A stretch of 64,000 nucleotides of DNA, taken from positions 1 to 64,000 of the IMG/VR virus record IMGVR_UViG_3300037067_011302. The stretch is one strand, 5' to 3'. The stretch is from a virus (lineage: Duplodnaviria; Caudoviricetes). A program made the position numbers and the translations under genes. Of the stretch, positions 18,131 to 53,693 are shown one piece after another (position 1 is the first letter of the stretch; the number at the start of each line of letters is the position of its first letter). The notes under the pieces are model-generated. The model ran no database searches. It saw nothing but the letters and a program-made list of their open reading frames with translations, and was not told where the DNA came from.

Positions 18131-18239
18131 TCTACAACCTCACTTCTGACAAAAATAAACCACCCGTCCTGACTCGTTCACTCATGTCAAGAATCTGACA
18201 GGATTGGAACGTGATGAACAAGGAAGAAGCATGACGTGT

Positions 18240-18245
18240 TATTTA
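18240..18245 (+). promoter_or_regulatory. Putative late promoter TA(C/T)TTA (representative site)
   Basis: Also at 19520, 32762, 46205, 47785, 52442, 53709, 56849, 59993, 62008, 63241 and 63709, nearly all in front of structural or leader-motif genes. Confidence 0.7.
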
Positions 18246-18250
18246 GCGAC

Positions 18251-19453
18251 ATGAAGATCATCCTCGGAACACTGCGCCACCTGATCAACGAGGCCTTATT
18301 GTTTGAGGATCGTGTTTCTGACGCGAAGAAAAAGTACCCTGAATTCGATGCAGAGATCGATGAATTGGCTTCTTCAGATCCATCTGGTTCTCAGAAGTAC
18401 CTAGCATGGAGCGTAAAGCAGTTGTCGTTGGGCGCAAGTATCAACGATTTGATTCCGACCGTTGAGTTCTTCCATAGAAATACACCTAAATTCAAGAATA
18501 GGGATATCAACGCCTATAAGACGTTGAAGGAGTTAGAGGATGAATTGAAGTCAATTTCACCCACTAAGACTCAGGAACGAAAGGCAGTGAAGGAGACAGG
18601 TGTTGAGAAGATGGGCGAGACCGGTGGGTACGAACTCATCCACGTGAAGAACAAGGGTGCATCACAGTTGTACGGTTCAGGTACCAAGTGGTGCATCACG
18701 ATGAAGGAACGCTCGTACTTTGAACAGTACAATGGTGCGAACGTGATGTTTTATTTTGCACTCTCAAAGACATTGCCGAAGACAAATCCTCTCTACAAAG
18801 TTGCATTCGCTGCACAACGAAATGTGAAGAACGTAGTTCAAAAAATTGACATCTTTGACGCAGAGGATAAACTGCTCGACAAAGTTCCTAATGAACTAGA
18901 AAATTTCTTGAGGATCATTGAACAGGATGCTCCGAAGCGAGAGATAAGTCTACTTGCAAAGATCAAGAACAGAAAAGCAACACTTGAAGAAATAGAACAA
19001 GCGTTAAAATTATATGACGATGATAGTGATACGCTTAAGTTCATTCTGAATTCTAAGTTAGCGGTGCCGTTCCTTCCACGCTATATGCACCATGAGGATG
19101 GATTTATTCGAATCGAAGTTGCAAGATTAATACAACAATCGTACCTGCCAGAAATGATGGATGATGAATTCTATAGAGTCCGTGAATTTGTCGCATGTCG
19201 AATCGATCAATCATACCTTCCACGAATGATGAATGACAGTGAGGCAACTGTACGATGGCACGTCATAAAACTTATTGATCCATCTTATTTGCCTGAGATG
19301 ATGGATGATGAAAACGCACTTAATCGATGGGAAATTGCAAAACGTATCAATCTTAAGCACCTTCGAGCAATGTCAAATGATACCTCAGAATTGGTTCAAG
19401 ATGCCGTGAAAAAACGACTCAGGACCCGTGCTTCGAAAAATCGTCCTCGTTGA
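18251..19453 (+). CDS. Leader-motif / YGxGTKWCI-domain / LRV-repeat protein, copy 1
   Basis: ATG 18251; 24-aa repeats of the type IDPSYLPEMMDD...VR. Confidence 0.8.
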   Translation: MKIILGTLRHLINEALLFEDRVSDAKKKYPEFDAEIDELASSDPSGSQKYLAWSVKQLSLGASINDLIPTVEFFHRNTPKFKNRDINAYKTLKELEDELKSISPTKTQERKAVKETGVEKMGETGGYELIHVKNKGASQLYGSGTKWCITMKERSYFEQYNGANVMFYFALSKTLPKTNPLYKVAFAAQRNVKNVVQKIDIFDAEDKLLDKVPNELENFLRIIEQDAPKREISLLAKIKNRKATLEEIEQALKLYDDDSDTLKFILNSKLAVPFLPRYMHHEDGFIRIEVARLIQQSYLPEMMDDEFYRVREFVACRIDQSYLPRMMNDSEATVRWHVIKLIDPSYLPEMMDDENALNRWEIAKRINLKHLRAMSNDTSELVQDAVKKRLRTRASKNRPR

Positions 19454-19530: not shown

Positions 19531-20883
19531 ATGAAGATTGTTGTTGGAACACTTCGTCGTCTAATTCGTGAAGTCTTGCTTCTTGAAGATCGTGTCTCAG
19601 ATGCGAAGGTGAAGTATCCTGAACTTGAAAAAGAAATCGATGAACTCGCGTCCTCAGATCCCTCAGGTTCACAGAAGTACTTGGCTTGGGGAGCGAAGCA
19701 ATTATCGCGAGGTGCCAGCATCGTAGACTTGATTCCAACGATCGAACTATTTCACAAGAATGCATCACAGTTCAAGAGCAAGGACATCAACTCGTACGTG
19801 TCACTGAAGGAGCTCGAAGACGAAGCAAAGTCAATCACGCCATCGAAATCGCAGGAACGCAAGGTCACGAAGAAAACAGGCATCGAGAGGATGGGCAACG
19901 ACAATGGCTACGAACTCATCTACGTGAAGAACAAGAGTGCAGCGCAACTCTACGGTTCAGGCACCAAATGGTGCATCGCAATGAAGGACGGAAAACACTA
20001 CGAACACTACGTGGGCGCCAACAATGTGTTCTACTATGCGCTATCGAGCACATTGCCAGAAACAAATCCTCTCTACAAGGTTGCATTTGCAATACAACGA
20101 GATTCTAATGGTGCCGTCCGCTATGTTCACATCTTTGACGCAACCGACAAACTTCTCGACAGAGTTCCTGATGAATTGACTGATCTATTGAAGACCGCCG
20201 AACAGGACGCTCCGAAACGTGAAGTGAGCATCCTCACCAAAATCAAGGACGGCAATGCATCATCAGAAGAGATTGAACAAGCTCTCGAATTGTACAAAGA
20301 CAATGCAGACGTACTTGCCTACATTCTTCAACAGAAGTACGCGGCACAATTTTTAACTCGTTACATTGATCACAAGGATGGAATCGTTCGAGCATCAGTC
20401 GCACATTCAATTCAAGTGTCTTACCTGCCTCAATTGATAAACGATGACAATCAATTCGTCAGGGCGACAGTCGCCAGAAGAATCAATTTCAAACACCTTC
20501 CGAAGATGATGAACGACGAATTTTGGGGCGTTCGTAGGAACGTTGCAACCCGGATCAATCCAACATATCTTCCTGAGATGATGAACGACGAAAATTCTAT
20601 GATCCGTGAGACAGTTGCAATCCGGATCAATCCGTCATATCTTCCTGAGATGATGAACGACGAAGACGAGTACGTTCGTCAACACGTTACTTTTCATATT
20701 GATCCATCTTATTTGCCTGAGATGATGAACGACGAAAGCGAACACGTTCGCAAAAATATTGCAAAACGTATCGATCCAAAGTACCTTCAGGAAATGTCAA
20801 ACGACGAATCCCAAACGGTTCAAAAAATAGCAAAGTCAAGGATGCTCAGGCTGCACCGTGCTTCGAAAAATCGTCCTCGTTGA
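19531..20883 (+). CDS. Leader-motif / YGxGTKWCI-domain / LRV-repeat protein, copy 2
   Basis: Paralogue with 72-bp-period DNA repeats (cctgagatgatgaacgacgaa) around 20570-20740. Confidence 0.8.
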   Translation: MKIVVGTLRRLIREVLLLEDRVSDAKVKYPELEKEIDELASSDPSGSQKYLAWGAKQLSRGASIVDLIPTIELFHKNASQFKSKDINSYVSLKELEDEAKSITPSKSQERKVTKKTGIERMGNDNGYELIYVKNKSAAQLYGSGTKWCIAMKDGKHYEHYVGANNVFYYALSSTLPETNPLYKVAFAIQRDSNGAVRYVHIFDATDKLLDRVPDELTDLLKTAEQDAPKREVSILTKIKDGNASSEEIEQALELYKDNADVLAYILQQKYAAQFLTRYIDHKDGIVRASVAHSIQVSYLPQLINDDNQFVRATVARRINFKHLPKMMNDEFWGVRRNVATRINPTYLPEMMNDENSMIRETVAIRINPSYLPEMMNDEDEYVRQHVTFHIDPSYLPEMMNDESEHVRKNIAKRIDPKYLQEMSNDESQTVQKIAKSRMLRLHRASKNRPR

Positions 20884-46242: not shown

Positions 46243-46515
46243 ATGATCATGTCGACGCAGAAGATGAACCTCTCTCAGGTGATGATGCTACGGGCAATCA
46301 GGTCGTGGATCACAGAGGGAAAGATGCCACTGAAAGTAAGAGGAACGCTGGATGAGGTAAGGATCGTGGGTGAGGTTGCTGAAGCCTCACGCGCACTACA
46401 CCTTGAAGTCAATGGCGATGATGCATCGTTGGTCAAGATCAACGAACTATTGTCGAGGAAATGTGCCGTCGCAAAAGAGTTCGAACGAACGTTTGGGTTC
46501 AAGTACCCATTCTGA
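46243..46515 (+). CDS. Hypothetical protein
   Basis: 90-aa ORF divergent from the tape measure gene. Confidence 0.6.
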   Translation: MIMSTQKMNLSQVMMLRAIRSWITEGKMPLKVRGTLDEVRIVGEVAEASRALHLEVNGDDASLVKINELLSRKCAVAKEFERTFGFKYPF

Positions 46516-47779
46516 TTCTTCTTTTTGCGGTTTCAATAACACGAGAAGACTTATCGTCTCGGAAAGACTCATTATTCATCATTTGTTGAAGATACTTGGG
46601 TTCAATTCTTCTTGCAACCATGTCACGTACATTAATGCTATCATCACTCATCATTTGTGAAAGATGTTGTACATCAATACGTTCTGCGACTATTAATCGT
46701 ACTCGTCCATCCACGTCATTCATCATCTTGATCAGATATGATGGTTCGATACATCTTGCGACCGCAGTACGCACGTCGGGATAAATACTTTTCATCATTC
46801 TTGGAAGATATGATGGATCAACGCGCCAAGCAACGGCGGCACGTACTCCACCATTTTCATCATTCATCATCTCTGGCAGATATTTTTGATCGATCACTCT
46901 AGCGATTAAGACACGAATATCAGCATTATGATGTTGAATGTAACGTGGCGCAATTTTTTTCATTGTGTTACCAGCGTTCTGCACAATTAGTCTAAGCATT
47001 GCGGCGTCATCATCGTACAATTTTAACGCTTGTTCGATCTCTTCTTCAGTCGCTTTTCCCAATTTGATCTTCGCCAACAGGCTCATCTCTCGCTTCGGAG
47101 CGTCCTGCTCAACAATTTTCAACAAATTTCTCAATTTAATGGGAACTTTTTCAAGTAATTTGTCGGTCGCGTCAAAGATGTCAACTCCTTGGACTTCATT
47201 CTTTACATCTCTCTTTGCCGCAAACGCCACCTTGTAGAGCGGATTCGTGTCGGGTAGTGTTTTAGAAAGCGCAAAATAGAACACAACATTTGCGCTCGTG
47301 TACTGTTCAAAGTATGTGTGATCCTTCATCGTGATACACCACTTGGTGCCTGAACCGTACAACTGCGATGCACCTTTGTTCTTCACGTGGACGAGCTCGT
47401 AATCATCATCCTCACCCATCTTCTCAACGCCGGATTCCTTTGTCGCCTTTCGTTCCTGAGTCTTCGTCGGCGAAATTGACTTCAATTCATCTTCAAGTTC
47501 CTTCAACGTCTTGTACGCGTTGATGTCCCTGTTCTTAAACTTAGGACCATTCTTATGGAAGAACTCAACGGTCGGAATCAAATCGTTGACGCTTACACCC
47601 AACGATAATTGCTTTGCACTCCACATCAAGTACTTCTGAGAACCTGAAGGATCTGAAGAAGCCAGCTCATCAATCTCTTTTTCGAGTTCAGGGTACTTTT
47701 TCTTCGCATCAGAAACGCGGTCCTCAAGCAGCAGGACCTCACTGATCAGGCGGCGCAACGTTCCGAGGACGATCTTCAT
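46499..47779 (-). CDS. Leader-motif / YGxGTKWCI-domain / LRV-repeat protein, copy 3
   Basis: N-terminal half nearly identical to copy 1; repeats divergent. Confidence 0.8.
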   Translation of the reverse strand: MKIVLGTLRRLISEVLLLEDRVSDAKKKYPELEKEIDELASSDPSGSQKYLMWSAKQLSLGVSVNDLIPTVEFFHKNGPKFKNRDINAYKTLKELEDELKSISPTKTQERKATKESGVEKMGEDDDYELVHVKNKGASQLYGSGTKWCITMKDHTYFEQYTSANVVFYFALSKTLPDTNPLYKVAFAAKRDVKNEVQGVDIFDATDKLLEKVPIKLRNLLKIVEQDAPKREMSLLAKIKLGKATEEEIEQALKLYDDDAAMLRLIVQNAGNTMKKIAPRYIQHHNADIRVLIARVIDQKYLPEMMNDENGGVRAAVAWRVDPSYLPRMMKSIYPDVRTAVARCIEPSYLIKMMNDVDGRVRLIVAERIDVQHLSQMMSDDSINVRDMVARRIEPKYLQQMMNNESFRDDKSSRVIETAKRRIRMGT

Positions 47780-47825: not shown

Positions 47826-48098
47826 TCAACTGAACCTGCGCAATCTTGACGGTGAGTCTGTCCTCGTATTTCCCAACATCGCTCGCACCTCAGGAGAATT
47901 CTGGTGTAGTGCCCTTGAGTGCGACTCATTGTCCTTGTCGGAATTCCTGCTGAGTTCCTTTGAAATACGGGAGATGAACCACCTCTTGTACTCAACTGGC
48001 AACTCATACGTTTCCTTCCAGGTAAATCCTCCATAATAAATAAGGATGAAGCTGGGTTCGAGGATCAGCTTCTCTTTATCTGCCGACGTTAGGCCAAA
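47826..48098 (-). CDS. Probable frameshift extension of the upstream tail assembly/hub chaperone
   Basis: Protein-like frame FGLTSADKEKL...YYGGFTW..YELP...RWF with no ATG near its start. Confidence 0.55.
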   Translation of the reverse strand, partial: FGLTSADKEKLILEPSFILIYYGGFTWKETYELPVEYKRWFISRISKELSRNSDKDNESHSRALHQNSPEVRAMLGNTRTDSPSRLRRFS

Positions 48099-48960
48099 GA
48101 AAGGATACGCCGATCGGCATCGACACCTCTTCAACGTGGCCACACGATTCACACGCACACTCCTGCGTCATCATGATTCCTGGCTCGTTGTCCTTGATGT
48201 AGTTACGCAGTGCCAACGAATCACGGGCAGGCATTGACTTCACGAACGTTGCGATCTTGGACCGATCATTGATGCCGTCGATCGATATGATGCTATGAAG
48301 CAATTGCGTGGTCACCACGGCATCGTTCCTCATGCCGAGCTTCTTCTGTCGATCCTTCATGACCATGATCTCTTCTTCATCGGCACCGGTCATGAACTTG
48401 AACGCAACGCGCTTCTTCGTGTACGGAAGCAGGAACATGAACTCATTCACGCCGACGGACGTCGGTTCGAGTTCCAATCGCTTCACGGGAAGTGCAGTGA
48501 GGTCGAACACGTGTTTCGACTTCGCCTCGCACTCAGGACATTCGATCTCAGCGTCGTACTCTGCACCGTATCCCGTGATCCGGATCGCAATCATCAGGGC
48601 ATTCCTGTCGCCGGCGAGCAACGTTGTCGGTTCAACGTTCCTGTTGACGAGGCACGACTTGATGAGCTCAGTGATCACCGTGCCCTTCTTCAAGAGAGCA
48701 CGAGACGTCAGGATGTCCTCCTCCTTTGCCGTCATTGCCTTGATCTCGACCATGTCCTGGCGATGGAACGGGTGGGGCGGTGCGTACGCAACGCCGTTCG
48801 AAGGCAGAGGCACAATTTCAGTCGGAATCTCAAGGCTGAGCTCGTGCCTCTGTGGTTGTGGTTGAGGCTGCACGACGACCTGTCGGGGCACGGGCACGTC
48901 TTCCGTCGAATCAGTTGCAAACACCTTGTTCTTCTGCTCACGTTCGTCCATTGTGTTCAA
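48076..48960 (-). CDS. T4 gp26-like baseplate hub assembly protein / tail chaperone
   Basis: LPSNG, MTAKEEDIL, GDRNALM..IR..GYG, CPEC, CESC, FLWP end. Confidence 0.75.
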   Translation of the reverse strand: MNTMDEREQKNKVFATDSTEDVPVPRQVVVQPQPQPQRHELSLEIPTEIVPLPSNGVAYAPPHPFHRQDMVEIKAMTAKEEDILTSRALLKKGTVITELIKSCLVNRNVEPTTLLAGDRNALMIAIRITGYGAEYDAEIECPECEAKSKHVFDLTALPVKRLELEPTSVGVNEFMFLLPYTKKRVAFKFMTGADEEEIMVMKDRQKKLGMRNDAVVTTQLLHSIISIDGINDRSKIATFVKSMPARDSLALRNYIKDNEPGIMMTQECACESCGHVEEVSMPIGVSFLWPNVGR

Positions 48961-49136: not shown

Positions 49137-49433
49137 TCACTTCTTGGCTCGTCTTAGCTCCTGTTCAACGATCACTCGTAGGTCAGTCGCCGACAGCTTC
49201 ACGCTCTCCGACTGACGCACGGCTCCCGGGGACCTCTCACCGACCAATGCATGCGTGACAATGCTCACCTGCTTACGTAGTGGATCAAATGCACTCGCCT
49301 TCTTCAGAGCAGCGATGATGTCCTCGAACGCCTCAGCAGCTGAGTCGGCAATGTTCATGTCCTCAACGTACTCATTTACCGCCTCGAGCTCTTCCTTGAT
49401 GATCCGTTTGAGATCGTTGTTCGAAATTTTCAT
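49137..49433 (-). CDS. Small protein with two copies of the leader motif
   Basis: MKISNNDLKRIIKEEL and VKLSATDLRVIVEQEL. Confidence 0.7.
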   Translation of the reverse strand: MKISNNDLKRIIKEELEAVNEYVEDMNIADSAAEAFEDIIAALKKASAFDPLRKQVSIVTHALVGERSPGAVRQSESVKLSATDLRVIVEQELRRAKK

Positions 49434-49489: not shown

Positions 49490-49780
49490 TCAAATGACGG
49501 GAGCGTCACTGTAAAAGATCAGCGACGACGGGATGGGCATCGGTTGGACGTCGATCACACCCTTCAGGTACGATGCTGAAAGAAGTCGACCCACTGTTCG
49601 CCACAACGCGTGTTCATTTGCCCACACGATCGTGATGATCGACTGTCCTCCTTCGTCGAACACAGAAACGACGGTGCCAACGCCTCCTAAACAACGTGCA
49701 ATTGCACCGGGCACAAAATTGCCGTCGACCTCAATGCCGTTCCAACGAAGGTCATCATGCGTGTAACTTTTGATGATCAT
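49490..49780 (-). CDS. Small protein ending in a gp23 capsid-like VQPM peptide
   Basis: GTVVSV...TIVWA domain followed by VIDVQPMPIPSSLIFY. Confidence 0.7.
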   Translation of the reverse strand: MIIKSYTHDDLRWNGIEVDGNFVPGAIARCLGGVGTVVSVFDEGGQSIITIVWANEHALWRTVGRLLSASYLKGVIDVQPMPIPSSLIFYSDAPVI

Positions 49781-50031
49781 GCGTATCCCTGGTTCTTAAG
49801 CGCCCTCAAGATGTCACGATCGATCTCTTCTGCAAGTTGGCGTGTAAGTTCGTCAATGAGTGGTTGTCTGTAGTCAAAGGGATTCGTCGCCCACACGATC
49901 GTCATGCGCTCGTCCTGAATTGAGACGACGACACCGCACGACCTATTGACGTGCACGATCGATCCGGCAATGATCGGCTGTTCAACCTCGATGTCTCCTA
50001 GCGCACCGGTGAAGTAACTTTCAACGAACAT
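49777..50031 (-). CDS. Small protein ending in a gp23 capsid-like EIDRxIL helix
   Basis: GVVVSI...TIVWA domain followed by ELTRQLAEEIDRDILRAL. Confidence 0.7.
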   Translation of the reverse strand: MFVESYFTGALGDIEVEQPIIAGSIVHVNRSCGVVVSIQDERMTIVWATNPFDYRQPLIDELTRQLAEEIDRDILRALKNQGYA

Positions 50032-50252
50032 AACAACACTCTATCACCGGACGAGCGTCGTTCATCATAGCACATGCACGATTCAGCTGCGCCCCTGTGG
50101 GGGTCAATTTTATTGTCCGTGATCGAACACCAGTCTGTCCGACGACACTTGTCGAAGACGCGCTCTGTCTTGGTGATGCAGTGCTTGCAGTTCCTACAAC
50201 GTTTGACCTTCGACGATTGTTCGGGAGTGATCATGGATTGAACGTACAACAT
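49998..50252 (-). CDS. Small Cys-rich hypothetical protein
   Basis: CRNCKHC...C...C...C; start uncertain. Confidence 0.45.
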   Translation of the reverse strand: MLYVQSMITPEQSSKVKRCRNCKHCITKTERVFDKCRRTDWCSITDNKIDPHRGAAESCMCYDERRSSGDRVLLCSLKVTSPVR

Positions 50253-50272
50253 GGTGAGGTGTAGTTTTTTAT

Positions 50273-51910
50273 GTGTCGTCTATTGCCAGAATTACGTGTC
50301 CTCGATGTGAAGCGTCATTTGGACAGGAAAAACGATTCATTGAACACCTAAAAATCGTTCATGAAATTGATGACGTCCTTGAATTTTATGTCAACACATT
50401 TCACAACGGAATACACCCAACATGTTCCTGCTGTGACGACTGCAAAGAACGTCTGTCGTGGTGTAGTTGGAAAAAAGGATTCACATCGAAGTACATTCGA
50501 GGGCACAATGCACGAGTGTACAACGTATATGCGGATCCTTCTTATCGTGATAAACTCGCCGAATCAAGACGAAAGGCGATAGAAGAAGGAAGGTTTACTT
50601 CATGGAACAAAGGTCTCACGAAGGAAACCAACGAGAAAGTTGCATCTGCGTCTAAGAAAGCTGGTGTTACGCTACATGAACGTTATGTAACGGGTTCACT
50701 CATCAATTGGCGTATATCAGATCCAGACAAGGGGGCTGAGGCTGCACACAAATCATCGCTCACAAAACGTGCACAATTTGCTTCTGGCGAACTATCTGGT
50801 TCGTGGAATAAGGGTCTCACGAAGGAAACAAGCGTTGCTTTGATGAAGATTGGTAGAAATATTTCAAAGAGTTACGATCGTCGTGAAATAAAGCAACGTT
50901 TCAGTATAGAAGAATTTGATGCACAGATTGCTGCACACTCTGACAAATTCGAACTGATCACAGATCCATTGTTATATAGAAGTAGTAAACGAACGATCCT
51001 TGAATTCAAGTGCAAAAATTGTGGAGCAACACAATTCAAGACACTTGTAAAATTGAACAATACGCCGAGGTGCTTTGAGTGCATGCCAAAAGCGTCAATT
51101 GCACAAATTGAAATTTTTGAGTTTGTCGAATCACTTGGATTCAACACGATTCTAAATGACAGAAAAACAATTTCACCGTTAGAGTTAGACGTGTATGTCC
51201 CATCTTCATCATTCGCCATTGAATTTAATGGGCTCTATTGGCACAGTCGACCACCTCTGAATGATGAATTTAGAATGCAGAAAAAATTGAATACATGCAA
51301 AAAAGTTGGAATTGACTTGTTAAACGTATTTGAAGATGAGTGGGAACATCATCAAGAAATCATTGAATCACTCATCGCCACTAGACTTCACATCTACAGG
51401 AGAACTTTCAGTGCTAAAGAACTGAACGTTGTCATTTTGAACACTAACGACGCAAAATCGTTCTTTGACGAAAATCATCTCGAATGCTACGTCCCAACAA
51501 CTATCACATTTGCTCTACAAACAATTGATGGTGAAATAGTTGCTGCGATGTCATTGAAAAGACTATTTCACAAAGAAATCAATGCATCTGTCGAAATTGC
51601 CAGAGCTTGTTCATCGATGAATTGTCATGTCTTTGATTGGGTAGAACGTTTGTCAGAGGCGTCACTAAATTGGTCTCAACAAACGTATGGAATCGATCGA
51701 TTGACGATATTCATCGATGAACGCATTGATGATGTGAAACAATTTTCACCTTGTTGGACACAGATAGGTGCTGAACAAACACCTAGATCATGGATCACCA
51801 ACAACAAATCAAGATTAGAACCACTCGACGAAAATTATTTGTCGAAACACGACAAAAAGATTTTTGGATGTGTTAGAACGAAGTGGTCTTATCCAAGATT
51901 TAATTCCTAG
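50273..51910 (+). CDS. Putative free-standing homing endonuclease (Zn finger, WNKGLTKET repeats, Hef/Vsr-like nuclease)
   Basis: ELDVYVP....AIEFNGLYWHS...FEDEW. AT-rich and antisense to the tail operon. Confidence 0.75.
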   Translation: MSSIARITCPRCEASFGQEKRFIEHLKIVHEIDDVLEFYVNTFHNGIHPTCSCCDDCKERLSWCSWKKGFTSKYIRGHNARVYNVYADPSYRDKLAESRRKAIEEGRFTSWNKGLTKETNEKVASASKKAGVTLHERYVTGSLINWRISDPDKGAEAAHKSSLTKRAQFASGELSGSWNKGLTKETSVALMKIGRNISKSYDRREIKQRFSIEEFDAQIAAHSDKFELITDPLLYRSSKRTILEFKCKNCGATQFKTLVKLNNTPRCFECMPKASIAQIEIFEFVESLGFNTILNDRKTISPLELDVYVPSSSFAIEFNGLYWHSRPPLNDEFRMQKKLNTCKKVGIDLLNVFEDEWEHHQEIIESLIATRLHIYRRTFSAKELNVVILNTNDAKSFFDENHLECYVPTTITFALQTIDGEIVAAMSLKRLFHKEINASVEIARACSSMNCHVFDWVERLSEASLNWSQQTYGIDRLTIFIDERIDDVKQFSPCWTQIGAEQTPRSWITNNKSRLEPLDENYLSKHDKKIFGCVRTKWSYPRFNS

Positions 51911-51913
51911 ATT

Positions 51914-52402
51914 TTAATAATCAAGGATCCAATTATCTCCACGTAGTGTTAATGCGATTTCGACCAACCCATGATCTTCATAAGTTAACTCCCCAAAATC
52001 GCAATCCGTTATCATAACACCTTTTCCGCGCCACATCTCTATTATTGTGCCGATGGGATCTACGAGCTTAAGGTCCGCGTCGCGCTTGTAGAAGTCAGCG
52101 TAACCCGCTCGGCCGGACACACTCTCGTAGTGCAGTCGAATCCACTCCATGACCTGTTGCGCTCCCGACGGTGCAATCGGATCGTGCAGCGTGATCGCCA
52201 CGGTCGAGAACTGTGGCTTGCCGGCAACGTAGCGGTGCGAGTTCATGAACGGGATCGGCACCTCTTCGATCGTCATCTGCGGTCGCTTCGCGGTCTTGAC
52301 GATGTACGCGTCAATTCCCTCAATCATTAAGACCCACCTGTTCTTTCGCTTTGGTTCGAAAGCAACATTCAGCATCGATGTAACGTCTAGTGTCTCGGCC
52401 AT
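51914..52402 (-). CDS. Tail tube protein (gp19-like)
   Basis: ATG 52402 with AGGAGG RBS; FEPKRKNRW, YVAGK, LHDPIAPSGAQQVMEW, GYADFYK; follows the sheath genes. Confidence 0.85.
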   Translation of the reverse strand: MAETLDVTSMLNVAFEPKRKNRWVLMIEGIDAYIVKTAKRPQMTIEEVPIPFMNSHRYVAGKPQFSTVAITLHDPIAPSGAQQVMEWIRLHYESVSGRAGYADFYKRDADLKLVDPIGTIIEMWRGKGVMITDCDFGELTYEDHGLVEIALTLRGDNWILDY

Positions 52403-52475: not shown

Positions 52476-53693
52476 ATGATTATGTTCTCACAGACAATGG
52501 ATGGAATCACAGGATCAACGATCTCGATCATCACGTGTCCGATCTGTGGTGAGTACTCATCAAAGCGTGAAACTAACGTTGAACGACACATGTTCGAAGC
52601 GCACGGCACGACGCTCGTTGACGAATACGTCAAGCTGCACGGACGACGACAGTGTGCGTGTGGGTGTGGCGGCGCGACGACGTGGCACGGTTGGAGGAAG
52701 GGATTCAGCACCTCGATCTGCGGTCACAACGGTAACATCTACTCGTTCTACGACCACAACAAAGCAACCGCCATCAGCGAAAGAAGGCGCGCGGCACTAC
52801 GTGGCAAGCAAAGTTGGGCAAAGGGATTGACGAAAGAAACTGACAAACGCATTGCACGACGAGCAAAATTGTCCACAATCAGCAAGCGTAGGACTACCTC
52901 ATGTGCTCGTGGTTCACGTGGTCAGACTGAGCTGTCGAAGTTCGTCGAATCGCTCGGCTTCACTGTCGGAAACAACGTCAGAGGAATCATCGGAAACAAG
53001 GAACTTGATATTTTCCTCCCCGAACACTTGTTTGCAATCGAGTACAACGACCTCTACTTACACAGCGAGAGGTTCAAGAGTTCGACGTACCACGAGGAAA
53101 AGTCGTCTCGGTGTGAGGCGATCGGCCTGTCACTGATGCACGTGTTTGAAGATGAGTGGGTGTACAAGAGGAAGATCGTCGAGTCAATCATCAAGAATCG
53201 ACTGAACGTTCCCGACAAACGCATTGACGTCGGATCATGCACTGTGAGAACGATCGACAGGAACACATCCGACTCATTCTTCGACGAATGTCACCTAGAC
53301 GGAAAGAGCGACGTGTCAGGACAGTCAACGATCGCGCTCTTCAACAATGAAGAGTTGGTCTACGCCATTGCAACGACGAACGGTGAAGTCCTGAGGTGCT
53401 GCCCGGCGCTGGGAACGAATGTCCCGGGTGGCCTCGTTGAACTATTGAAACAGCGACCAAACGTCAACTCGATCATCGTCGACGAGAGGCTCGGCAGCAC
53501 GAACTCAGCACTTCGCTCTGCAGGGTTCTCTCCGACGAACGAGACAACACACCGCTCATGGTGGACAGACTACGATTCCAGGTACGACTCATCGCTGTGT
53601 ACTAGAGACGAAGCGGGCACAAGAGGTCTCTACTTCATCCACGGGTGCAGCGTTAGGAGGTGGAAACGAATCACTACTCGTCACGATTTATAA
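52476..53693 (+). CDS. Putative free-standing homing endonuclease, paralogue of 50273-51910
   Basis: CACGCG..W..W.KGF, WAKGLTKET, ELDIFLP...AIEYNDLYLHS...FEDEW. Confidence 0.75.
   Translation: MIMFSQTMDGITGSTISIITCPICGEYSSKRETNVERHMFEAHGTTLVDEYVKLHGRRQCACGCGGATTWHGWRKGFSTSICGHNGNIYSFYDHNKATAISERRRAALRGKQSWAKGLTKETDKRIARRAKLSTISKRRTTSCARGSRGQTELSKFVESLGFTVGNNVRGIIGNKELDIFLPEHLFAIEYNDLYLHSERFKSSTYHEEKSSRCEAIGLSLMHVFEDEWVYKRKIVESIIKNRLNVPDKRIDVGSCTVRTIDRNTSDSFFDECHLDGKSDVSGQSTIALFNNEELVYAIATTNGEVLRCCPALGTNVPGGLVELLKQRPNVNSIIVDERLGSTNSALRSAGFSPTNETTHRSWWTDYDSRYDSSLCTRDEAGTRGLYFIHGCSVRRWKRITTRHDL

What the first reader, a model, noticed from the sequence alone, without database searches (positions are those of the whole stretch)
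49490..50031. Two paralogous mini-proteins each display a different major-capsid peptide, one matching the T4 Gol region
Seen: both share a small beta-rich N-terminal domain (GxVVS[IV]xD...TIVWAxx) and then diverge. One ends RTVGRLLSASYLKGVIDVQPMPIPSSLIFY, the other ELTRQLAEEIDRDILRAL. Established (from memory): gp23-family capsids have VRR....LIA.DI.GVQPM..PTG.IF, the Gol peptide region that activates the Lit protease, and the helix L..EI..EI[ND]REI. Inference: a scaffold-plus-epitope family acting as decoys for capsid-sensing immunity, or as dominant-negative inhibitors of competing phages' capsid assembly.
Basis: partly seen in the sequence, partly recalled or inferred. Interest (0 to 1): 0.82.

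Follow-up and report, generated by a model that had tools for sequence, protein, structure and literature searches.

The report
Mini-proteins carrying capsid-protein look-alike tails
Two small neighbouring genes of an uncultured T4-like phage each end in a short stretch that resembles a different, highly conserved piece of the phage's own major capsid protein, which suggests molecular mimicry of the capsid, but the genes are known from this one phage only and their function is untested.

Summary
Two minus-strand ORFs, B (84 aa, 50031..49777) and A (96 aa, 49780..49490), overlap by ATGA. Both have phage-typical codon usage and share a beta-rich N-domain (34% identity, E 1e-5).

Their tails match the phage's own 633-aa gp23-family capsid protein, which lies outside the window.
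- A residues 71-93 match capsid 96-118, the equivalent of the T4 Gol region (hhalign E 9e-6).
- B residues 51-81 match capsid 409-439, the P-domain spine helix (hhalign E 2e-5).
- B also matches the same helix of T4 gp24 (E 4e-5).

Each match alone is borderline genome-wide. Two adjacent paralogs hitting the same protein is not: about 2e-3 such pairs are expected, and none appeared in five genome shuffles. The copies are old, with no nucleotide-level similarity.

No homolog exists in 1.8 billion representatives or in related phages, so this is not a core assembly factor and not yet a "family". The structure models were of low confidence.

My best reading is accessory capsid-segment mimics that compete for a partner which reads those segments. 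A host capsid sensor is the most likely partner, and capsid assembly is the alternative. The function is inferred only. The same stretch was flagged once more by this scan, from an overlapping window.

The parts
49777..50031 (-). Gene B, 84 aa plus stop. First gene of the pair.
   Evidence: ORF list. Codon-usage log-odds is 0.31 per codon in this frame, like hub and MCP, and negative in the other five frames. It was called as a gene on two other contigs that carry the same protein; the one whose DNA could be read (L003) is identical.
49490..49780 (-). Gene A, 96 aa plus stop. Second gene of the pair.
   Evidence: ORF list. Codon-usage log-odds is 0.26 per codon, with the other frames negative. 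A purine-rich AGGGA lies about 7 nt before the ATG.
49777..49780 (-). ATGA overlap of the stop of B with the start of A (translational coupling).
   Evidence: Read directly from the sequence.
49864..50031 (-). N-domain of B (residues 1-56), beta-rich.
   Evidence: Paralogous to the A N-domain. AF2 places strands at 25-29, 34-39 and 42-48, at low confidence.
49595..49780 (-). N-domain of A (residues 1-62), beta-rich.
   Evidence: AF2 places strands at 16-18, 21-23, 35-43 and 46-53, with mean pLDDT 62.
49789..49881 (-). Tail of B (residues 51-81): a look-alike of the capsid P-domain spine helix.
   Evidence: hhalign against the MCP profile at 409-439, E 1.8e-5. BLASTP against T4 gp24 190-218 gives 13/29 identical, E 4e-5. 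It keeps 5 of the 6 columns that are invariant among own MCP, T4 gp23 and T4 gp24. AF2 predicts a helix at 56-80.
49502..49600 (-). Tail of A (residues 61-93, core 71-93): a look-alike of the capsid N-arm/P-domain junction, the equivalent of the T4 Gol region.
   Evidence: hhalign against the MCP profile at 96-118, E 8.7e-6. HMM alignment of A 65-92 to MCP-HMM positions 96-123. Three-way alignment with T4 gp23. AF2 predicts a helix at 56-68 followed by two strands.
50064..50072 (-). Extended -10-like element (TGC then TATGAT), 33-41 nt upstream of the start of B. No -35 element. Possible own promoter.
   Evidence: Read from the upstream sequence. The consensus scan, which needs a -35, did not report it. 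Weak evidence.
49137..49433 (-). Context: gene D, 98 aa, directly downstream of A. It has a charged leader motif at both ends, a good GAGG ribosome-binding site, and an upstream element that differs by one base from the candidate late-promoter motif ATAYTTA.
48076..48960 (-). Context: gp26-like baseplate hub gene.
   Evidence: PF12322, E 4e-16; phrog_150.
50273..51910 (+). Context: homing endonuclease gene on the opposite strand, inside a low-GC island.
   Evidence: phrog_3339, E 7e-45. GC is 0.36-0.45 against 0.49-0.55 for A/B. Codon log-odds is 0.05.
51914..52402 (-). Context: tail tube gene (about 162 aa, from the internal ATG).
   Evidence: phrog_4542. The start was set by comparison with relatives.

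Best explanation
A and B are real, translationally coupled, lineage-specific accessory genes. Each protein is a small beta-rich domain (the two are paralogs) carrying a C-terminal tail that copies one conserved structural element of the gp23-family major capsid protein (MCP). The tail of A copies the helix-plus-strand segment at the N-arm/P-domain junction, which is the segment that in T4 forms the Gol peptide. The tail of B copies the P-domain spine helix.

Shown: the genes, the paralogy, and the position-specific resemblance of the tails.

Inferred: the tails were captured from capsid-coding sequence long ago, or converged on it, and are kept because they mimic the capsid. They would then compete with the real capsid protein for a partner that reads these two invariant segments. 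Close relatives with almost identical capsid segments lack the genes, so that partner is more likely a variable outside factor than the core assembly machinery. The most plausible such factor is a host defence sensor or co-opted host protein that recognises capsid segments, as Lit/EF-Tu does with Gol and as CapRel does with a capsid protein. The mini-proteins would act as decoys or antagonists.
For: Real genes:
- Codon-usage log-odds is 0.26 for A and 0.31 for B, like hub (0.32) and MCP (0.32). All other frames are negative.
- GC is backbone-like, unlike the neighbouring endonuclease island.
- The genes overlap by ATGA.

Resemblance to the capsid:
- BLASTP E 4e-5 and 7e-4.
- HMM E 8.7e-5 and 5.7e-4, with 0/5000 and 3/5000 shuffles reaching the score.
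- hhalign E 8.7e-6 and 1.8e-5.
- A and B rank first and second among 3408 non-MCP ORFs.
- In 101 kb of syntenic DNA from 8 relatives the best score is 3.6 bits, against 7.0 and 4.4 here.
- No adjacent pair reached comparable E-values in 5 genome shuffles.
- B independently matches the homologous helix of T4 gp24, E 4e-5, and keeps 5 of 6 family-invariant columns.

The targets are constrained:
- Both target segments are among the most conserved blocks of the capsid family.
- The Gol region is described as the most conserved part of gp23 and as the cofactor for Lit (PMC3014915).
- T4 spine-helix residues 292, 306 and 307 are sites of gp31-bypass mutations (PMC9546572).

Accessory character:
- The genes are absent from 8 syntenic loci and 5 large related records, including a 91%-complete genome whose capsid protein is 80% identical.
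Against: - Only one genotype is known, so there is no evolutionary evidence that selection maintains the tails.
- Each hit alone is within reach of genome-wide chance (an all-against-all search gives about 16 better or equal hits, mostly true repeat families).
- The matched cores are short (23 and 31 residues).
- The genes sit in the late structural cluster rather than among early accessory genes.
- No defence system or host is known for this phage.
- A Gol-like peptide is an activator of Lit, not an inhibitor.
- The structure models are of low confidence (pLDDT 62 and 46.5), so 'display on a scaffold' is not shown.
Confidence: 0.3

Rival explanations
1. Capsid assembly or folding modulators. 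The tails bind the capsid protein itself, or its scaffold or chaperonin. They would either tune folding and assembly of the phage's own head (loosely like the small T4 prohead-core proteins gp67/gp68) or poison the heads of co-infecting relatives in a dominant-negative way.
For: - The genes lie within the structural gene cluster, on the same strand, directly upstream of gene D. D carries a charged leader motif that recurs on several small ORFs in relatives.
- Both mimicked elements belong to or abut the P domain. The spine helix governs chaperonin dependence of folding in T4 (PMC9546572).
- The target segments are nearly invariant across the clade, so an inhibitor would act broadly on relatives.
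Against: - The genes are absent from all relatives examined, including one with an 80% identical capsid protein. An own-assembly role therefore cannot be essential.
- There is no sequence similarity to T4 gp67, gp68 or gp22.
- The mimicked elements are mostly intra-subunit in the HK97 fold (my own knowledge), which makes simple interface competition less obvious.
Confidence: 0.22
2. Chance resemblance. A and B are ordinary fast-evolving ORFan accessory proteins, and the similarity of their tails to the capsid protein has no biological meaning.
For: - The matched cores are short.
- HMM scores are only 7.0 and 4.4 bits. Whole-genome shuffles reach 8.8, 6.6 and 5.6 bits as top scores.
- Pfam Gp23 does not hit either protein even at E 10.
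- The tail of B is a charged amphipathic helix, a composition that matches easily.
- The pair was picked by a reader who was looking for such motifs.
Against: - The expected number of adjacent ORF pairs hitting one protein at these E-values is about 2e-3 per genome, and none was seen in 5 shuffles.
- Both hits fall on the most conserved capsid blocks, at ungapped homologous positions.
- B matches T4 gp24 independently.
- hhalign probabilities are about 80%.
Confidence: 0.2
3. Neutral relics. The ORFs are chimeric left-overs of endonuclease-driven rearrangement that fused scraps of capsid-coding DNA to a duplicated small gene. They are still open but have no function.
For: - The slot between tube and hub is a hot spot. 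Endonuclease genes sit there in this phage and in loci L006 and L010, with a degenerate one in L011.
- Two small ORFs conserved at this position in relatives are missing from the 184-kb contig held for this phage.
- An endonuclease that shares the zinc-finger module lies right next to the capsid gene.
- The genes are singletons.
Against: - Both ORFs are intact, coupled and in frame, with full phage-like codon usage in N-domains and tails alike.
- There is no nucleotide-level similarity to the capsid gene: 45-49% nt identity, and identical codons at only 4 of 11 and 5 of 14 identical residues.
- The order of the segments is reversed relative to the capsid gene.
- Two independent in-frame fusions onto two paralogs would be needed.
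Confidence: 0.1

Closest known systems
T4 Gol peptide / Lit protease / EF-Tu exclusion system
   Same: The tail of A corresponds, through the alignment of the phage's own MCP with T4 gp23, to the gp23 segment that holds the Gol peptide. This is a short, highly conserved capsid segment that a host-side factor reads (PMC3014915).
   Different: Here the segment sits on a separate 96-aa protein, not in the capsid protein. Direct similarity to the T4 Gol sequence is weak (E 0.27). No Lit homolog, host or EF-Tu interaction is known. Gol activates the defence rather than blocking it.
CapRel-type sensors that bind a phage major capsid protein directly (PMC9712102; listed, paper not read)
   Same: It shows, in concept, that a conserved HK97-fold capsid protein is read directly by an immunity protein. 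That would create a niche for a mimic or decoy.
   Different: No CapRel-type partner has been identified here, and I found no phage-encoded capsid mimic described as an antagonist in the library. The link is analogy only.
T4 prohead-core proteins gp67 and gp68
   Same: They are two adjacent small genes (80 and 141 aa) with overlapping stop and start in a T4-type structural cluster, and they take part in head assembly and size control (PMC9026906).
   Different: There is no sequence similarity to A or B. T4 gp67 and gp68 show no significant similarity to gp23 either (best E 0.6). They lie between the portal and protease genes, whereas A/B lie between tube and hub. They are conserved core components, whereas A/B are lineage-specific.
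Capsid-redirecting proteins of phage satellites (P4 Sid, SaPI CpmB, PLE TcaP, and the capsid homolog Ccm of cf-PICIs); from my own knowledge, not checked here
   Same: They are small accessory proteins that act on a capsid protein's assembly, and some are derived from capsid proteins.
   Different: They are encoded by satellites, not by the phage itself. They do not consist of an unrelated small domain plus a 25-35-residue capsid segment.
gp23/gp24 major capsid family (Pfam PF07068)
   Same: The tails reproduce the family signature at two conserved blocks.
   Different: A and B are not capsid proteins. They have no Pfam hit. The N-domain is unrelated to any part of the capsid profile. Only 23-35 residues align.

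Membership tests
gp23/gp24 major capsid protein family (PF07068) | A match to the family model above the curated cut-off, over the HK97-fold core. | tested here: not met
   No Pfam family for A or B at E 0.01 or at E 10. The own MCP scores 212 bits.
gp23/gp24 major capsid protein family (PF07068) | Local signature blocks: the N-arm/P-domain junction and the spine helix. | tested here: met
   hhalign E 8.7e-6 for A and 1.8e-5 for B. Ungapped alignments with own MCP, T4 gp23 and T4 gp24. This shows resemblance of segments only, not membership.
T4 Gol peptide (Lit cofactor) | Positional equivalence to the Gol region of gp23. | tested here: met
   MCP 73-124 aligns with residues 19-70 of mature T4 gp23, and the tail of A aligns within it. 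The exact Gol residue numbers are from my memory. The review says only that it is a 29-residue region in the first quarter of gp23.
T4 Gol peptide (Lit cofactor) | Significant direct similarity to the T4 Gol sequence. | tested here: inconclusive
   A 75-95 vs T4 gp23 111-136: 35% identity over 26 residues, E 0.27.
T4 Gol peptide (Lit cofactor) | Binds EF-Tu domains II/III and enables cleavage by Lit. | not testable with these tools
   Needs biochemistry. The host is unknown.
T4 prohead-core proteins gp67/gp68 | Sequence similarity, and a position between the portal and prohead-protease genes. | tested here: not met
   No A or B hit to gp67; the only hit to gp68 is B at E 5.6. A/B lie between the tube/endonuclease genes and the hub gene.
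   AF2 models are of low confidence (pLDDT 62 and 46.5). Foldseek against the PDB gives nothing at E 0.001 or below. No Pfam hit.
SdrD_B / prealbumin-like repeat domains | A significant single-domain match. | tested here: inconclusive
   The N-domain profile hits giant repeat proteins at E 6e-11 to 8e-4, and the first one is built of SdrD_B repeats. Each stretch covers only 24-34 of the 62 profile positions, each protein matches at 5-15 stretches, and the pairwise E is 0.59. These are probably beta-strand pattern matches.
Cargo of the adjacent homing endonuclease | Shares the composition and codon usage of the endonuclease island. | tested here: not met
   GC3 is 0.58-0.62 for A/B against 0.35 for the endonuclease. 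Codon log-odds is 0.26-0.31 against 0.05. The island boundary is near 50200.

The most novel reading that the evidence does not exclude
A phage encodes a coupled pair of mini-proteins that each present a copy of an invariant capsid-protein element (the Gol-region equivalent and the spine helix). They would work as decoys or antagonists of host immunity that senses capsid proteins. This would be the first 'trigger mimic' counter-defence built from pieces of the phage's own capsid protein.
Probability: 0.2. Interest if true: 0.85.

Novelty: categorically new. Interest (0 to 1): 0.6.

Why it matters
Capsid proteins are among the best documented triggers of bacterial immunity, because their conserved segments cannot easily mutate. 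If a phage can express harmless copies of exactly those segments on a small carrier, that is a new counter-defence principle. It would also be a ready-made tool for mapping which capsid epitopes sensors read.

If the proteins instead act on assembly, they would be a minimal natural example of peptide-level interference with HK97-fold capsid formation.

In either case the architecture is searchable: an unrelated small domain plus a 25-35-residue piece of the phage's own structural protein. Such a search could show whether this is an isolated oddity or a hidden class. If it proves to be chance or a relic, the case is a useful calibration of how far short-motif resemblance can mislead.

Tried and rejected
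- **Homolog searches, all empty apart from self.** These were the word-indexed search of 5.8 billion proteins for A and B; PHROGs and Pfam; tblastn against 50,697 phage records and blastn; an HMMER profile of the N-domain against 1.84 billion representatives, which returned only repeat-protein hits judged spurious or inconclusive; degenerate-pattern scans of viral and metagenome contigs; 8 syntenic loci and 5 large related records; and a search for a third paralog in the own genome.
- **Other contigs.** Two other contigs carry B. The one whose DNA could be read is 100% identical, so no substitution analysis was possible.
- **Structure.** Single-sequence AF2 models were of low confidence, and Foldseek against the PDB found nothing significant.
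- **Complex prediction of capsid protein plus A.** It returned no answer: the score was under the mark and the controls were not run. This is no evidence either way.
- **N-domain derived from the capsid hairpin before the spine helix.** hhalign finds nothing (E 0.23 over 6 columns), so I dropped this idea.
- **A/B as diverged versions of the two small ORFs conserved at this position in relatives.** hhalign probability is below 1%, so rejected.
- **Recent copy of the capsid gene.** Rejected, because synonymous sites are saturated.
- **Decayed second capsid or vertex gene.** Rejected. The order of the segments is reversed, the N-domains are paralogous to each other, and T4 gp24 finds only the MCP in this contig.
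- **Similarity of T4 gp67/gp68 to gp23, which I recalled from memory.** It is not visible by BLAST and is not mentioned in the reviews I read.
- **T4-type late promoter TATAAATA.** There are no copies in the window.
- **ORF C (50001-50252, Cys-rich).** It has no coding signal and is not counted as part of the unit.

Full report
**What is there.**
The window is bases 1-64000 of a 184,219-bp linear IMG/VR virus contig. CheckV estimates the contig as about 54% complete.

On the minus strand lie two short ORFs:
- B: 84 aa, from 50031 down to 49777.
- A: 96 aa, from 49780 down to 49490. Its ATG overlaps the TGA of B as ATGA.

Around them, reading along the minus strand, are:
- the tail tube gene (51914-52402);
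- a homing endonuclease gene on the opposite strand (50273-51910);
- B, then A;
- a 98-aa gene D (49137-49433);
- a gp26-like baseplate hub gene (48076-48960).

The phage's own major capsid protein (MCP) lies outside the window at contig 73698-75599. It is 633 aa long and belongs to the gp23 family (PF07068, 212 bits). The nearest cultured relatives of that protein are Flavobacterium and Microcystis myoviruses at about 45% identity. Hundreds of uncultured relatives exist at 61-80% identity.

**Are A and B genes?**
A codon-usage log-odds trained on the contig's 59 long ORFs gives these values:
- A 0.26 and B 0.31 per codon in the annotated frame.
- For comparison: hub 0.32, tube 0.30, MCP 0.32.
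- All five other frames of A and B are negative.
- N-domains and tails score alike.

The neighbouring endonuclease scores 0.05 and has GC3 of 0.35, against 0.58-0.62 for A/B. The GC profile puts the low-GC island at about 50200-51950. A and B are therefore resident-like genes, not endonuclease cargo.

Both were called as genes on two other contigs, from other samples, that carry the same protein. The one whose DNA could be read is 100% identical, so it gives no evolutionary information. The Cys-rich ORF C upstream (50001-50252) has no coding signal.

**The N-domain.**
A 1-61 and B 1-55 align at 34% identity (E 1e-5 for the single comparison; alignment). No third copy exists in the contig.

Nothing related was found anywhere else:
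- the word-indexed search of 5.8 billion proteins;
- PHROGs and Pfam;
- phage GenBank records;
- pattern scans of viral and metagenome contigs;
- a full HMMER profile search of 1.84 billion representatives.

The last search returned only giant repeat proteins (the first is built of SdrD_B/prealbumin-like repeats). Each stretch covers only 24-34 of the 62 profile positions, and each protein matches at 5-15 stretches. The pairwise E-value is 0.59. I treat these as strand-pattern matches.

Single-sequence AF2 models are of low confidence (pLDDT 62 and 46.5). They agree on a beta-rich N-domain. In A it is followed by a helix plus two strands, and in B by one long helix. Foldseek found nothing significant.

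**The tails and the capsid protein.**

| Test | A tail | B tail |
|---|---|---|
| BLASTP vs own MCP | 75-92 vs MCP 100-117, 10/18 identical, E 4e-5 | 48-81 vs MCP 406-439, 14/34 identical, E 7e-4 |
| HMM of 81 family members (Z=1) | 65-92 on HMM positions 96-123, E 8.7e-5 | 58-79 on HMM positions 419-440, E 5.7e-4 |
| Shuffles reaching the observed score | 0 of 5000 | 3 of 5000 |
| hhalign vs a 40-sequence MCP alignment | probability 83%, E 8.7e-6, 23 columns | probability 78%, E 1.8e-5, 31 columns |

Both capsid segments are among the most conserved blocks of the family, nearly invariant among relatives that are only 61-80% identical overall.

An alignment of the own MCP with solved T4 gp23 identifies the first block as the stretch of gp23 that includes the Q-P-M motif. 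This is the Gol area, in the first quarter of the protein. The review PMC3014915 describes it as a 29-residue region, the most conserved part of gp23, which binds EF-Tu and enables Lit cleavage.

The second block is the P-domain spine helix. T4 residues 292, 306 and 307, which fall inside the aligned stretch, are stated to lie in the spine helix and to be sites of gp31-bypass mutations (PMC9546572).

B also matches the homologous helix of T4 gp24, a very distant family member that was not used to pick the pair. That match is 13/29 identical, ungapped, E 4e-5. In a four-way alignment B keeps 5 of the 6 columns that are invariant among own MCP, T4 gp23 and T4 gp24, and is conservative at the other conserved columns.

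A keeps the V, Q-P-M, P and F columns shared by own MCP and T4 gp23. Its direct similarity to T4 gp23 is weak (E 0.27). A resembles its own lineage more closely: the own MCP and A share L-I-F-Y where T4 has a different sequence.

**How much is chance?**
I tried to break the result.
- Against all 3409 six-frame ORFs of the contig, the capsid HMM ranks A and B first and second after the MCP itself. The scores are only 7.0 and 4.4 bits.
- Shuffling every ORF of the genome gives top scores of 3.0-8.8 bits in nine trials. Neither hit is genome-wide significant alone.
- In an all-small-versus-all-large BLAST of the genome, the A hit (E 0.003) ranks 17th, behind true repeat families.

The conjunction is what stands out.
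- The only adjacent same-strand ORF pairs that hit one large ORF with both E below 0.03 are two obvious repeat or fragment families and A/B.
- Five shuffled genomes gave none. The smallest product of E-values in the shuffles was about 6e-3, against 6e-5 for A/B.
- My estimate of the expected number of such pairs is about 2e-3 per genome.
- In 101 kb of real syntenic DNA from eight relatives, the best capsid-HMM score among 1757 ORFs is 3.6 bits.

Taking these results together with the independent gp24 match, I put the probability that the resemblance is not chance at about 0.8.

**Origin.**
- The tails share no nucleotide-level signal with the capsid gene. Nucleotide identity is 45-49%, and identical codons occur at only 4 of 11 and 5 of 14 identical residues. 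This is not a recent copy.
- The order is reversed: the helix-bearing B comes first. The two carriers are paralogs of each other. A decayed second capsid gene does not fit.
- T4 gp24 finds only the MCP in this contig.
- hhalign finds no relation between the N-domain and any part of the capsid profile.

**Distribution and context.**
Eight syntenic loci were recovered through the hub protein (58-65% identity). Five large related records were also searched, one of them 91% complete with a capsid protein 80% identical. All lack A and B.

At this position relatives carry two other conserved small ORFs. One looks like a winged helix and the other has a conserved D-R-R-W-D motif. These are unrelated to A/B and are missing from this contig.

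The slot between tube and hub repeatedly holds homing endonuclease genes. They are present in L006 and L010, with a degenerate one in L011. Here the endonuclease is in inverted orientation. A and B are thus lineage-specific residents of a variable, endonuclease-prone slot inside the structural cluster.

No T4 late promoter consensus occurs in the window. Several structural genes have an ATAYTTA-like element 15-30 nt upstream of the start. D has a variant that differs by one base, and B does not have it. B instead has an extended -10-like element 33-41 nt upstream of its start. This is a weak hint of separate, possibly earlier, expression.

**Interpretation.**
Shown:
- Two real, coupled genes.
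- Paralogous carrier domains.
- Tails that resemble two different conserved capsid elements at homologous positions.
- Accessory, single-lineage distribution.

Inferred: the tails work by mimicry. Relatives with nearly the same capsid segments do without these genes, so a core assembly role is unlikely. I favour competition for an external reader of capsid segments, such as a host defence sensor or a co-opted host factor. Precedents for such readers are Lit/EF-Tu with Gol and CapRel with a capsid protein (PMC9712102, listed). My confidence in this reading is about 0.3.

A role in folding or assembly of the phage's own or competitors' heads is nearly as likely (0.22). Chance (0.2) and neutral relic (0.1) remain open. 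I found no description of phage mini-proteins carrying pieces of their own capsid protein in three literature searches. That is a limited search, not proof of absence.

**Comparison with known systems.**
- T4 gp67 and gp68 are also two small adjacent genes with overlapping stop and start in a T4-type structural cluster. They show no similarity to A or B, and none to gp23 by BLAST. They also sit elsewhere in the cluster.
- A and B are not members of the gp23 family. They fail its model and share only 23-35 residues with it.

**Verdict.**
If real, the kind of system is new. Interest is moderate to high, tempered by singleton status and short matches.

Noticed in passing
window 49137-49433 (-); L011 5055-6007; L006 4939-5768; L005 4897-5826 and 6377-6673; L008 5720-6615; L009 4124-4420: Gene D begins with a charged leader of the type M-K-I-(S/T)-x-x-(D/Q)-L-(K/R)-x-I-I-(K/R)-E-E and repeats a similar motif at its C-terminus. 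Relatives carry up to four tandem small ORFs with the same leader and otherwise unrelated bodies. This could be a shared targeting or propeptide leader, comparable in idea to the capsid-targeting sequence of the T4 internal proteins. D itself has no hit in PHROGs or Pfam; the relatives' copies were not scanned.
   Followed up: partly
window 50273-51910 (+) and 52476-53693 (+), flanking 51914-52402 (-): The tail tube gene is flanked on both sides by opposite-strand homing endonuclease genes of the same PHROG (3339, E about 1e-44 each). The first lies in a low-GC island (0.36-0.45). A homolog sits in the same slot in L010 but in the opposite relative orientation.
   Followed up: partly
L004-L007, L010 and L011, the 300-700 bases upstream of the hub gene (e.g. 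L011 7243-7918): Two small ORFs are conserved directly upstream of the hub gene in relatives. One is about 95 aa and winged-helix-like. The other is 75-100 aa with an invariant D-x-R-W-D motif. Their order is swapped between subgroups. Both are absent from this phage's 184-kb contig.
   Followed up: partly
window 49946-49974 (+) and 50091-50113 (+): A sigma-70-like promoter match and, about 120 nt downstream, a GC-rich hairpin followed by a T-run lie on the strand opposite to B. Together they could give a short antisense RNA across the start codon of B. Both matches occur at chance frequency in the scan.
   Followed up: no
window 18236-19453 (+), 19531-20883 (+), 46499-47779 (-); contig 86397-87983, 69177-70703, 100578-101984, 113469-113807: This is a dispersed multi-copy family. 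Several 400-530-aa ORFs and two small ORFs share an N-terminal module, and the copy at 46499-47779 has HEAT/LRV-type repeats.
   Followed up: no
contig 72481-73485 (-), 132401-132658 (+), window 50273-51910 (+): The endonuclease-type gene directly downstream of the capsid gene shares its N-terminal zinc-finger module with a 92% identical fragment at 132.4 kb. That fragment in turn matches the endonuclease next to A/B at 36% identity. T4 likewise has segD right after gene 23.
   Followed up: no
window, upstream of 56830, 59962, 47779, 46200, 49433; contig upstream of 76842: The T4 late-promoter consensus TATAAATA is absent from the whole window. An ATAYTTA-like element recurs 12-35 nt upstream of several structural gene starts and may be this clade's late promoter.
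   Followed up: no
window 50001-50252 (-): The Cys-rich 84-codon ORF C overlaps the start of B by 31 nt and has no coding signal (log-odds -0.06). The gene caller of another assembly chose a 55-codon ORF on the opposite strand instead. Probably neither is a gene.
   Followed up: partly
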